Made by a program: the position numbers. A stretch of DNA of 63,427 bases, the filler included, from an uncultured archaeon (GTDB lineage: Archaea > Iainarchaeota > Iainarchaeia > Iainarchaeales > 1-14-0-10-31-34), in the NCBI GenBank assembly GCA_964442255.1. It is 3 parts of 3 records of this genome, joined end to end, with 100 filler letters (N's around TTAATTAATTAA, not from the genome) between each part and the next. Parts side by side here need not be neighbours in the genome. Positions count along the whole stretch, not along the records: positions 1 to 27,888 come from CAYTYC010000017.1; 2 more parts are not named here. One strand, written 5' to 3'. How positions within the stretch are numbered: the stretch's first letter is position 1; each line of letters begins with the position of its first letter. Below, in pieces: positions 6,001 through 9,000 of this stretch.

Positions 6001-9000
6001 GGAATTCGGCAAAATGGCCCCGTATCTTTGGTATAAGGGGTGCCTGCAATTGCGTAAATTGCAGGTTGCAATGACAAAAGGAGTCCGACTGTTTACCAAA
6101 AACACAGGTCCCTGCCAGCCAGCAATGGTGTGAATAGGGGCTGACTTCTGCTCACTGCCAGTACGTCAAACTCTCGTTCAAGGGAGCTAAGCGCTGGTGA
6201 AGAGCGGGCCTAACTCTGAGGCTCTCACGGTAGCGTAATACCTTGCCGGTTTAATGCCGGCTTGCACCAATGAAGCAACGAGATTCCTACTGTCCCTGGT
6301 TTAGACCTGATGAACTCACTGCGTGGTGAATATGCCACGGATTCCCAATGGGAAGAGAAGACCCCACGGAGGTTTACTACAGTCTGATGCTGGGGTGTGG
6401 TTTTTGTTGTACAGCGTAGATGGCAGGCTTCGAAGCAGTTTCGTCAGGAATTGTGGAGCCGCCAATGTAACACCATCCCATAAAAACCGCACTTCTAACC
6501 CGCAAGGGAACAACATTTGATGGGTAGTTGGACTGGGGTGGTACGCCCCTGAAAAGATATCAGGGGCGCCCAAAGGTTTGCTCAGGCGAGTCAGAAATTC
6601 GCCGTAGAGGGCAAGACCAAAAGCAAGCTTGACCGTGTTCAGCAAAGCAATGAACGCGGATTCGAAAGAAGGGTCTAGCGAACGTCAGTGCCCTTTTAAT
6701 GGGGGCCTGGACTTACAGTGAACTTATCCTGGGGGTAATTGAGTGGTAGCGGGTGAGAGTACATATCGACCCCGCTGTTTGCGACCTCGCCGTCGTCTCA
6801 AGGCATCCTGGCCGTGCATAAGCGGCCAAGGGTGGAGGTGTTAACTCATTAAAGCCTTACGTTAGTTGGGTTAAGAACGGTGCGAGCCAGTTTGGATACT
6901 ATCTATTGGGGATGTGGATTGCTTGAGGGTAAGATCCGATGAGTACGAGAGGAACGTCGGGTCGTGGCCTCTGGTGTGCCAGTTGTCTGACAAGGCACTG
7001 CTGGGTAGCTACGCCGCACAGGGATAAGAGCTGAAAGCATCTAAGCTCGAAGCCCCTCCCGAAAATAAGCAATCATTCCTGAAGGCCCTTGTTCTGCGGA
7101 ACAGGGGAGATAGGGACAAGAGCTCCGGTAGAACACCGGTTTGATAGGCTGGAGGTGTAAGCAAAAAGCTTCGGCGATTTGTTCAGCCCACCAGTACTAA
7201 ACGCTCAAGGGAACTCTTTGCATGGGCTTCATGCCTCTGAATCAACGCTTTCAAAACGTGCACACTAAAAAGTGAATTTAAATGAAGATTCCAAAGGAAG
7301 TAAACACGTACTGCCCAAAATGCAAGGCGCACAAAAAGCATAAACTCAAACAATACAAGACTGTCGGGTTTGGGGGAATGCGCAAGGACGCGAAAGGAAA
7401 CCGCGTGAAAACCCGCGGTCGTAGTGGGTATGGCGGACAGTACGAGTTTGTGGGAAAAGTGAAAAAGCAAACCAAAAGGCCTGCATTTCTGGCAACCTGC
7501 TCTGTCTGCGGAAAAAAGCATTATTACGTTTACAAGGCGCGGATGAAGTTTACAACCGAATGATGCTAATTTTTTTATAATCCTTAAACTATTTTAGAAA
7601 CTTAACTTTATTTTCATAATCGTAAATCATGTTACATCAACGGTATTCAGAAAAGGGTATGTGTTCTTTCTGCACAGTATTAACCCACAAAGGCTTCCCA
7701 CTTGAGCCATAAAAAACAGTTATGGCAGAGGTAAATTTTTTCATTGGTTGATAATATTCAACTTTGTAAACTGCCGGTTCGCCTACCCCGCTGCGATGCA
7801 GTTCCCCAATAAAGGTGAGTCTTGCATTCTTTCCAGAAACCAAAAAAGGCAAGATGGCATTTTTTTCCCCGCACCCCCTGCCTAAAGGTTTCAGGTAACT
7901 GCGACAAAATAGCAAAACCACGCCTTGTAAAAACTCTTACTCCCTGATCATATTTAAAGGAGGATTCACCTTCACTTCCCCTTGTCTGCCCCTTTCGCCT
8001 TTTCCCGTGTCCCAACTTTCTACATCTTATCATAGATTAGTTCCACCATAACTACCATAATACTCTTTAAGCTTTTTGCAAGTAAGAATAAATAAACTTA
8101 CGATAGAATAGCTATTTCCATTTCCTGAAAAGTTCGCTGAAAACTTTTTCCCCTTTCTCCAGCTCCTTTAATGTGATGTGCTCGTCTGCCCTGTGCGCCT
8201 GCCTTAACTTTGCCTGCCCGTAAATTATTCCCTGAATTCCATGAAAAGCCATTTCCGAGCACTCTGAAGCCGCGGTGAAGCCTGTTAAAGCGGGGTTCAT
8301 TTTCAGTTTCCGCAGGGCTGCCTGCATTTCCTCCACTATTTTAGAGTTTTTCGGGGTTTCACAGGGATCCACCAACTTTAAAAGCCTGCAGTCAAAGTCC
8401 GAAAAAAACGCAATAAAGTCCCTTGCCTCTGCCTTCGGGTCTTCATTGGGCAGAACTCTTCTGTCAACGTGGATTGTTGCCCTGTCCGGGACACTGCTTG
8501 TTGTCCTGCCTCCCTCAATCCATCTCACGCTTATGGAAGCGTTTCCAAAGAGAGGATATGTTTTTTTGCTTAAATCCTTGTTTCTTTTCTCTATTTTGTG
8601 CACAAGCCCCGCAATCTTGTAAATCGCGTTTTCCCCTTTTTGCGGGGAACTTGCGTGCGCGGATTTTCCTTTCGCTGTTGCCTCCAAAAGGTATTGCCCG
8701 CGGTTTCCAATCGCGATTTTTCCGCCGGTCGGCTCAAGTGAAATGGAGTATTTGATGTTCTTCAGTTTTGTTTTCCTCAGTTTCATTGCCTTGCTGATGC
8801 CTTTCCAGGTGGTTTCCTCGTGGGTGTTAAACAAATAGACAATGTTTTCGTTGAACTGTTCTTTCATTGCAGCCAAAACGCAGGCAATGTTTCCTTTTGT
8901 GTCCGCCGCCCCCCTTCCGTACAGTCTGCCTCCGGAAATCTGCCCCAGTGGATTGTACTTCCATTCCTTTTGGGTAAACGGAACAACGTCCATGTGCCCG

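What a model noticed while it worked through the whole genome (the two positions that open the first line are those of the whole stretch)
6190..6905. Peptidyl transferase centre and A-loop of 23S rRNA changed at near-universal positions across Iainarchaeales
The 23S rRNA departs from the archaeal consensus at a cluster of active-site bases: A2448G, C2452U, A2453U, A2503C, U2504C, G2509U, and in the A-loop C2551G, C2556A and G2557A (E. coli numbers, assigned from recalled motifs). Helices 69-71 are altered as well. These are fixed lineage traits in the A-site cleft where PTC antibiotics bind (recalled).
Evidence so far: Infernal alignments to RF02540 show the changes. In 30 order genomes, including this one: G2448 30/30, C2503 29/29, C2504 28/29, G2551 and A2557 30/30, 2556 is A in 24 and U in 6 (these 6 also have G2552), U2452 21/30, 2453 never A. 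The H69-H71 variant is present in all 28 read. An exact scan of 185,579 species genomes for the 2503/2504 variant gave 51 stretches; 49 carry the same altered A-loop. A2448, A2503, U2504, C2551, C2556 and G2557 are among the positions E. coli ribosomes tolerate in vitro (PMC7049736, passages, call 135).
(Added by a program. Inside this text positions count along the whole contig: they may not be those of the stretch shown here. "Call 12" and the like, gene names such as g00115 and contig names such as C1 are that model's own, and its searches are not shown. The text may have been shortened before it was handed on; [...] marks where a part breaks off. The agent that wrote the report below was given it as the finding of a first reader that could run no searches.)

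Follow-up and report, generated by a model that had tools for sequence, protein, structure and literature searches.

The report
Heavily rebuilt archaeal ribosome active sites
An order of tiny uncultured archaea has swapped many normally fixed bases around the peptide-bond-forming and decoding sites of its ribosome while keeping the catalytic bases themselves; most of the single swaps also occur in other archaea, but no other group sampled carries so many together.

Summary
All nine reported 23S changes are real, in a single-copy, full-length rRNA gene, and are order-wide in 99 genomes. They are not near-universal within Archaea. A2503C is in 58 of 58 matched Thermococci-phylum genomes, 30 of 30 Altiarchaeota and 30 of 31 Micrarchaeota; G2551·A2557 is in 56 of 58 Thermococci-phylum genomes and 42 of 42 Nanobdellota loci. 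The catalytic and tRNA-pairing bases never change. Best reading: compensated remodelling of the second shell around an unchanged core, fixed on the stem of a fast-evolving order. Lower drug binding is a likely by-product; drug selection is possible but unshown. It is a new, more extreme variant of the divergent archaeal active site described for Pyrobaculum; I found no report of it in ten literature searches.

The parts
4235..7220 (+). 23S rRNA gene, full length, single copy
   Evidence: RF02540, 2625 bits, model 1-2987; one BLAST hit in the genome
6734..6740 (+). PTC 2447-2453: A2448G, C2452U, A2453U; U2449, A2450, A2451 kept
6784..6796 (+). PTC 2497-2509: A2503C, U2504C, G2509U; C2501, G2502, G2505, U2506 kept
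6834..6847 (+). H92/A-loop: G2551·A2557 closing pair, C2556A opposite U2552, compensated G2549A-C2559U; G2553, U2554, U2555 kept
6863..6893 (+). G2576U (6863), C2579U (6866), U2586A (6873), C2606U (6893); G2583, U2584, U2585, A2602 kept
6719..6720 (+). A2432U and A2433G; U2432 in 96 of 96 order genomes, 0 of 218 other archaeal loci
6206..6272 (+). H69-H71: compensated 1910-1920 swap, U1926C (6226), A1928C (6228), G1968C (6268); A1912, A1913 kept
6354..6372 (+). PTC 5' side 2055-2073: U2068C (6367), compensated 2067-2443 and 2073-2436; G2061, A2062, C2063 kept
6531..6544 (+). P-loop: G2251, G2252 kept
6097..6097 (+). U1782C, covarying partner of 2586
5947..5950 (+). A1614G, C1615G, C1617A (tunnel-wall region; role recalled)
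1481..3155 (+). 16S rRNA gene of the same operon
   Evidence: RF01959, 1369 bits
1488..1488 (+). 16S U13C, C in 30 of 30 order genomes read
2540..2540 (+). 16S A915U, U in 39 of 42 order genomes read
2673..2673 (+). 16S C1054U (decoding site), U in 37 of 38 order genomes read, C in 20 of 20 other archaea
3031..3111 (+). 16S h44 compensated pair G1405A (3031) : C1496U (3111), 42 of 42 order genomes read; A1492, A1493 kept
3791..3863 (+). tRNA-Ala(UGC) in the 16S-23S spacer
7282..7563 (+). ribosomal protein eL42 (L44e) gene just after the 23S gene
   Evidence: PF00935

Best explanation
This is the working ribosomal RNA of the order. Peptide bonds are made the usual way, because the bases that pair with tRNA ends or position the substrates are untouched. 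What changed is the second shell: bases that pack behind the A-site cleft, close the A-loop, line the tunnel mouth and flank the decoding site. Archaea have interchangeable states at many of these positions and switch between them repeatedly. On the stem of this fast-evolving order an unusually large set was fixed together, held in shape by compensating partners, and has been conserved since. Shown: the changes, their spread, the unchanged core, one phylogenetically independent tertiary covariation. Inferred: that the fold re-packs locally as in Pyrobaculum, that the short archaeal uL3 loop permits it, and that A-site-cleft and h44 drugs bind less well as a by-product.
For: No change within the order at G2061, C2063, G2251, G2252, U2449, A2450, A2451, C2501, G2502, G2505, G2553, U2554, U2555, G2583, U2584, U2585, A2602 (84 order rows on the tree). 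Helix pairs swap together: 2067-2443, 2069-2442, 2071-2438, 2073-2436, 2507-2582, 2512-2574, 2593-2600 and 16S 1405-1496. The 1782·2586 contact is U·U in 127 of 127 non-DPANN and Altiarchaeota loci but C·A (58) or U·G (24) in 84 order genomes; 7.3 of 8 independent pairs go the same way, p 0.016. The single states recur on a 276-row tree built without PTC columns: C2503 12 changes, U2453 13, U2452 18, C2504 12, G2448 10, U2509 13. The rest of the 23S is also the most diverged sampled: median 9.7% of 401 cross-domain positions against 1.0-7.1% in the other non-reference groups. Within the order PTC positions vary less than the rest (35% against 44% variable; 1.5 against 3.2 changes per site, p 0.019). 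A2448, A2503, U2504, U2586, C2551, C2556, G2557, C2559 and C2254 are on the E. coli in vitro tolerance list (PMC7049736, section read). Precedent with structure: P. calidifontis (10.1101/2024.11.12.623245, results and discussion read). A metatranscriptome contig covers 6715-6854 with 12 other letters, where non-order archaea differ at 23 or more.
Against: The PTC and H69-71 are hit harder than background: 14.3% and 14.0% against 9.7% in the order, while Nanobdellota (6.2 against 7.1) and Altiarchaeota (2.4 against 6.7) show no such excess; window 23 of 148 against 31 of 401, odds ratio 2.2, p 0.009 (region chosen after the observation, sites not independent). Plain drift does not explain that. 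Most proposed tertiary couplings failed on independent pairs: 2504-2576, 2504-2509, 2452-2453, 2503-2453, 2503-2448, 2055-2504, 2552-2556, so compensation in the cleft itself is not shown. C2452, A2453 and G2509 are not on the tolerance list, and allele-level activities were in a supplement I could not read. No structure or activity data exist for this ribosome in my calls.
Confidence: 0.62

Rival explanations
1. The changes were selected as a package that evades small-molecule inhibitors of both subunits, made by bacteria or fungi in shared habitats.
For: Exact laboratory resistance alleles are present: A2503C and A2453C (chloramphenicol, Rhodothermus, PMC8614978 passages), C2452U and U2504C (Thermus, PMC7345174 passages), G2576U (linezolid, PMC11700844 passages), G2447A and U2500C (listed in the preprint discussion). 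75 of 94 order genomes carry 3-5 of seven such alleles; at most 2 in Thermococci, Micrarchaeota, Altiarchaeota, Thermoplasmatota, Asgard and Halobacteria loci. The 16S changes lie at tetracycline, aminoglycoside/hygromycin and streptomycin sites (recalled, no call). Excess of change in functional centres.
Against: Viable mutations and resistance mutations are the same filtered set, so the overlap is expected without selection. A2503C is fixed in the Thermococci phylum and Altiarchaeota, with no shared exposure that I can name. No excess turnover at PTC sites within the order. Three order genomes carry none of the seven alleles. Many changes (2432, 1926, 1928, 1968) are not known to me as drug sites.
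Confidence: 0.17
2. The ribosome was re-tuned in function: A-site accommodation and wobble decoding changed, co-evolving with lost tRNA/rRNA modification enzymes or with lineage-specific factors.
For: C1054U is near-fixed (37 of 38), and C1054 packs against the wobble pair (recalled). The genome has an intronless tRNA-Ile(UAU) and no TiaS match in 5 of 5 genomes of 94-99% completeness. FtsJ/RlmE matches in only 6 of 215 phylum genomes at E 1e-15, and 2552 is G in 27 of 97. The window genome's uL3 has Arg at the tip of the tryptophan finger, where yeast W255C disorders 2503-2506 (PMC5331904 passages).
Against: The uL3 tip is W in 42, F 13, Y 12, R 3, H 3 among order rows read, with no link to the 2504 state. 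Fibrillarin is present, so U2552 may still be methylated. All three stop codons end long ORFs normally. tRNA-Ile(UAU) was checked in one genome only.
Confidence: 0.17
3. Pseudogene, chimera or assembly error.
For: All order genomes here are unnamed assemblies, most in many contigs; some records with the signature carry other taxon titles (L139, L172).
Against: Single full-length copy; identical in a second sample; same states in 99 genomes forming one branch with support 100 and in 108 of 122 metagenome stretches; compensated pairs.
Confidence: 0.01

Closest known systems
Divergent PTC of Thermoprotei and Methanomethylicia (Pyrobaculum calidifontis; Nissley et al., 10.1101/2024.11.12.623245)
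   Same: Natural changes in 2447-2453 and 2500-2504 of an archaeal 23S rRNA, catalytic bases kept, overlap with resistance alleles, short archaeal uL3 loop. U2504C is shared, and Thermoproteales-type rows also carry G2509U.
   Different: Different alleles (A2448G, C2452U, A2453U, A2503C here; G2447A, A2453C, U2500C, C2501A there). C2501 is kept in 95 of 95. Median 11 against at most 7 core changes in the Thermoproteota loci. Extends to the A-loop closing pairs, 2576, 2586·1782, H70-71 and the 16S decoding site. The preprint text has 0 hits for Iainarch, DPANN, Micrarch or 2503.
A-loop CC variant of Thermoproteota (PMC9976906, passages)
   Same: Natural variation in the A-loop next to G2553.
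   Different: That variant is U2554C/U2555C; here both stay U (97 of 97) and 2551, 2552, 2556, 2557 change. The paper has 0 text hits for 2551, 2556 or DPANN.
Thermococci-phylum, Altiarchaeota, Micrarchaeota, Nanobdellota and Methanomassiliicoccales 23S rRNAs (this work)
   Same: Carry subsets: A2503C, G2551·A2557, A2448G, A2453U, C2452U, U2504C with G2576U.
   Different: At most 5 of the nine reported states together (3 of 38 Nanobdellota loci), against 5-9 in 94 of 95 order genomes. Canonical C1054 and G1405 in all that were read.
Laboratory PTC-antibiotic-resistant ribosomes (Thermus, Rhodothermus, Staphylococcus, haloarchaea)
   Same: Same nucleotides, several the same alleles.
   Different: Single or double mutants with a measured phenotype; here a fixed natural set with no phenotype measured.

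Membership tests
Functional archaeal LSU rRNA (RF02540) | Full-length match above the gathering score | tested here: met
   2625 bits, model 1-2987
Functional archaeal LSU rRNA (RF02540) | Catalytic and tRNA-pairing bases intact (G2251, G2252, A2451, G2553, U2585, A2602, triple 2063-2450-2501) | tested here: met
   0 changes in the order
Functional archaeal LSU rRNA (RF02540) | Helices maintained by compensatory change | tested here: met
Functional archaeal LSU rRNA (RF02540) | Transcribed and assembled into active 50S | tested here: inconclusive
   Order-type PTC contig in an RNA library; contigs cannot exclude DNA; assembly not testable
Pyrobaculum-type divergent PTC | Variation within 2447-2453 and 2500-2504 | tested here: met
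   five changes in these two stretches in the window
Pyrobaculum-type divergent PTC | C2501A with re-formed 2063-2450-2501 triple | tested here: not met
   C2501 in 95 of 95
Pyrobaculum-type divergent PTC | Cytidines at 2453, 2500 and 2504 together, and G2447A | tested here: not met
   window U2453, U2500, C2504, G2447; C2453 with C2500 in 1 order row
Pyrobaculum-type divergent PTC | Short archaeal uL3 loop near the PTC | tested here: met
   aligns without a gap to Thermococcales uL3 across the G-x-I-x-P-W stretch
Pyrobaculum-type divergent PTC | Re-packed base triples seen by cryo-EM | not testable with these tools
   no structure of this ribosome; no RNA 3D tool
Thermoproteota A-loop CC variant | C2554 and C2555 | tested here: not met
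   U2554 and U2555 in 97 of 97
PTC-antibiotic-resistant ribosome | Carries alleles selected as resistance mutations elsewhere | tested here: met
   window has C2452U, A2503C, U2504C, G2576U
PTC-antibiotic-resistant ribosome | Reduced inhibition by the drugs | not testable with these tools
   uncultured lineage; no assay

The most novel reading that the evidence does not exclude
On one ancient branch, this order rebuilt both functional centres of the ribosome as a coordinated unit: A-site cleft, A-loop, H70-71 and tunnel mouth in 23S, and C1054U, 1405-1496, 13 and 915 in 16S. The result is a naturally multi-drug-insensitive ribosome with altered wobble decoding that reads AUA with a UAU-anticodon tRNA, a distinct free-standing solution for the core of the cytoplasmic ribosome.
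Probability: 0.2. Interest if true: 0.88.

Novelty: new variant of a known kind. Interest (0 to 1): 0.62.

Why it matters
It maps, from living sequences, which bases of the ribosome's active sites are truly fixed and which only look so from bacteria and haloarchaea. The order gives the densest natural set among the archaeal groups sampled, in both subunits, and its sub-lineages give stepping stones (for example G-C to G·U to U·U at 2509-2579; U·U to C·A or U·G at 1782·2586). The by-product result is directly checkable: A2503, called universally conserved in the Cfr literature (abstract of PMC10557674 as listed), is C across the Thermococci phylum, whose ribosomes have solved structures (6skf, 4v6u, 9sra listed). 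Natural compensated sets also bear on ribosome engineering and on why archaea resist some drugs.

Tried and rejected
Order-specific status of A2503C, G2551·A2557, A2448G, A2453U, C2452U, U2504C, G2509U: rejected. C2556A/U as unique: 0 of 231 other archaeal loci in the genome sample, but 14 of 122 metagenome stretches with it are 69-89% like my references and carry A2432 or other non-order states, so it recurs elsewhere. H69 loop as altered: rejected. Coupling of 2504 with 2576, 2509 or 2055, of 2452 with 2453, of 2503 with 2453, 2448 or 2557, and of 2552 with 2556: visible in raw tables, not significant on independent pairs. uL3 Trp-to-Arg as the enabling change: only 3 rows, no link to 2504; 10 of 90 regions gave no motif match. 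A one-residue shorter uL3 basic thumb goes with C2504 by eye but rests on few branches; not tested further. Loss of RlmE as the cause of G2552: the enzyme family is nearly absent in both states. Folding the A-loop hairpin alone was uninformative. A Halobacteriota genome survey failed: the centre titled Methanosarcinales returned the same genomes as the Nanobdellota survey; only five haloarchaeal plasmid operons stand in, and methanogen phyla and bacteria other than E. coli were not surveyed. RNA-run difference tables were cut and did not list the key sites. One large alignment timed out and was replaced by profile alignment.
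Full report
Observation. The window holds one rRNA operon: 16S 1481-3155, tRNA-Ala 3791-3863, 23S 4235-7220. It is the only copy in a 93.8% complete genome. With numbering from a fetched E. coli rrlB, all nine reported changes are present and sit in confidently aligned RF02540 columns. A second DNA sample repeats 6555-6960 and 6150-6344 without a difference.

Spread in the order. Of 196 genomes, 114 matched; I read 99. Fixed or nearly so: G2448 98 of 98, non-A 2503 95 of 95, G2551 and A2557 97 of 97, U2576 94 of 97, A/G2586 96 of 97, U2432 96 of 96. Variable: 2452 (U 45, C 52), 2453 (U 76, C 10, G 9, A 2), 2504 (C 74, U 21), 2509 (U 61, G 36), 2552 (U 70, G 27), 2556 (A 64, U 20, C 13). 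Ten genomes of other orders in the phylum share G2448 (10 of 10) but mostly keep A2503 (7 of 10) and have U2551 with A2557 (9 of 10). The 84 order rows form one branch with support 100 on a tree built without the PTC columns.

The positions are not near-universal in Archaea. Surveys with a pattern blind to the key bases then gave, as matched of searched: Thermococci phylum 58 of 61, all C2503, 56 with G2551·A2557; Altiarchaeota 30 of 46, all C2503; Micrarchaeota 31 of 151, 30 with C2503; Nanobdellota 59 of 131, with G2551·A2557 in 42 of 42 fetched loci and non-A 2503 in 8 of 42; Thermoplasmatota 61 of 121, 16 C and 2 U at 2503 by my reading of the rows; Thermoproteota 74 of 121, 1 C; Asgard 18 of 61, 2 C. 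Each centre genome was chosen for having C2503, and phylum names are inferred from record titles. G2448 is in 29 of 29 Micrarchaeota loci, U2453 in 24 of 24 Altiarchaeota and 26 of 26 Thermoplasmatota, U2509 in 29 of 30 Thermoplasmatota. Yeast also departs at 2551-2557 (PMC2995063 passage).

What is special. Density first: of 50 PTC ring and loop positions shared by E. coli and H. marismortui, the order changes a median of 11 (8-17, n 88; window 12), against 8 in other orders of the phylum and in Nanobdellota, 6 in Micrarchaeota, 4 in Altiarchaeota and Thermoplasmatota, 2 in Thermococci, Thermoproteota and Asgard, 0 in Halobacteria. 94 of 95 order genomes carry 5-9 of the nine reported states; outside, 5 is reached only by 3 of 38 Nanobdellota loci. 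Then near-private states, order against other archaeal loci: 2432 96 of 96 against 0 of 218; 2556 84 of 97 against 0 of 231; 2068 84 of 92 against 1 of 203; 1926 73 of 89 against 2 of 183; 1928 84 of 89 against 3 of 188; 1968 88 of 91 against 8 of 202; 2586 A/G 96 of 97 against 11 of 231; 2576 94 of 97 against 13 of 231. Last, the small subunit. Among 48 order genomes examined, those in which each motif could be read gave C1054U 37 of 38, G1405A and C1496U 42 of 42, non-A 915 40 of 42, U13C 30 of 30. Among 27 other archaea examined: C1054 20 of 20, G1405 13 of 13, C1496 20 of 21, A915 18 of 18, U13 9 of 10. The RF01959 consensus has these bases as conserved, and 1405-1496 as a kept pair. The outgroup for 16S is small.

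How it most likely works. Shown: the bases that pair with tRNA ends or form the catalytic pocket do not change in the order, and A1492, A1493, G530 are kept in the window. Helix pairs swap together. The 1782·2586 contact moves from U·U to C·A or U·G with support from independent pairs (7.3 of 8, p 0.016); that these two bases touch is recalled. U2503 goes with U2062 in three order genomes and in an unrelated DHVE2 record, and A2062·A2503 is a known pair (PMC8614978 passage); but C2503 goes with A2062 in 241 rows. Nine changed positions in the window are on the E. coli tolerance list (PMC7049736, section 14 read). Inferred: local re-packing behind an unchanged core, as cryo-EM showed for P. calidifontis, helped by the short archaeal uL3 loop (preprint results read; loop length). 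The whole 23S is fast-evolving (9.7% of 401 cross-domain positions; reference groups score near zero by construction), and within the order the PTC is more constrained than the rest. Against a pure drift account, the PTC and H69-71 were hit about 1.5 times harder than background in this order and not in Nanobdellota or Altiarchaeota. The pattern is a burst on the stem, then stasis. A compensatory cascade and a selective episode both predict that.

Rivals. Drug selection: the window has four exact resistance alleles and 75 of 94 order genomes carry 3-5 of seven, but viable and resistant mutations are the same filtered set, and A2503C is fixed in whole phyla. Functional re-tuning: C1054U, a tRNA-Ile(UAU), no TiaS match in 5 of 5 genomes, scarce FtsJ (6 of 215) and Arg at the uL3 finger tip in this genome; but the tip is not order-wide, fibrillarin is present and stop codon use is normal. 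Artefact is excluded.

Known or new. The kind is known: Nissley et al. describe divergent PTCs in Thermoprotei and Methanomethylicia (10.1101/2024.11.12.623245; I read parts 1-2 of 7, the discussion and method passages; figures and supplements unseen). Its text has no hit for Iainarch, Diapherotrit, DPANN, Micrarch or 2503. The A-loop paper PMC9976906 (passages) has none for 2551, 2556, DPANN or Thermococc. Ten library searches (listings only) showed no paper on this order's rRNA active sites or on C2503 in archaea. The library lacks most subscription papers, including the journal version of Nissley et al., whose supplementary alignment probably contains these sequences. Other papers were seen as passages only: PMC2995063, PMC7345174, PMC5331904, PMC11700844, PMC8614978, PMC13324472, PMC7689648, PMC12605026, 10.1101/2024.11.28.625670. 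Roles of 16S C1054, 13/915, 1405/1496 and 23S 1614 are recalled.

Verdict. Observation confirmed; interpretation partly supported. It works like the Pyrobaculum-type divergent PTC but is not a member of it: C2501A and the triple-C set were tested and not met. New variant of a known kind, the most extreme among the groups sampled and extending to both subunits. Interest 0.62.

Noticed in passing
window 2231-2414 (+): A 184-nt insertion in the 16S gene at E. coli 793/794 (790 loop), absent from 15 of 15 other genomes compared and folding as a long hairpin (z -3.2); probably an archaeal rRNA intron.
   Followed up: partly
window 13221-14918 (-): A 565-aa long RelA/SpoT-type protein with HD, synthetase, TGS and ACT domains (below the TIGR00691 cut-off). 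Long RSH proteins are unusual in archaea (recalled). It lies between alanyl- and arginyl-tRNA synthetase genes.
   Followed up: partly
G000:C12:38261-38335 (-): Intronless tRNA-Ile with UAU anticodon; no TiaS (PF08489) match in 5 of 5 order genomes while 4 archaeal controls match.
   Followed up: partly
L445:1402-2505 (G000:C5): uL3 has Arg at the tip of the tryptophan finger, as do G018 and G085 and the chains 6zu5 and 7qca (that these are microsporidian is recalled); most of the order keeps W, F or Y.
   Followed up: yes
L367-L396 (phylum of the Thermococcus record L180): A2503C in 58 of 58 matched genomes and G2551·A2557 in 56; I found no paper noting this.
   Followed up: partly
L047, L059, L087, L088, L096-L099: Insertions of 73-728 nt in 23S genes of relatives at E. 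coli 1924, 1931, 2313 and 2476; probably introns.
   Followed up: no
L057 (G023) and L085 (G154): Compensated C2507U-G2582A together with G2581U in the PTC; the 2507/2582 swap also appears in several non-order metagenome stretches.
   Followed up: partly
phylum survey: FtsJ/RlmE-family matches at E 1e-15 in only 6 of 215 genomes of the phylum.
   Followed up: partly
G000, several contigs; window 16953-17129 and 24816-24977: Many tRNA genes are called with introns of 17-260 nt, some giving odd anticodon calls that are probably mis-parsed.
   Followed up: no
L167: A record titled Rhodothermus sp. carries A2503C in a bacterial-type 23S, the allele selected on chloramphenicol in R. marinus.
   Followed up: no
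window 3140-3500 and 3930-4200: Repetitive A/T-tract and short palindromic motifs in the rRNA spacer, with a 100-N scaffold gap at 3269-3368.
   Followed up: no
window 9654-9924 (+): Archaeal RNase P RNA with several shortened helices, 97.9 bits against a cut-off of 84.
   Followed up: no
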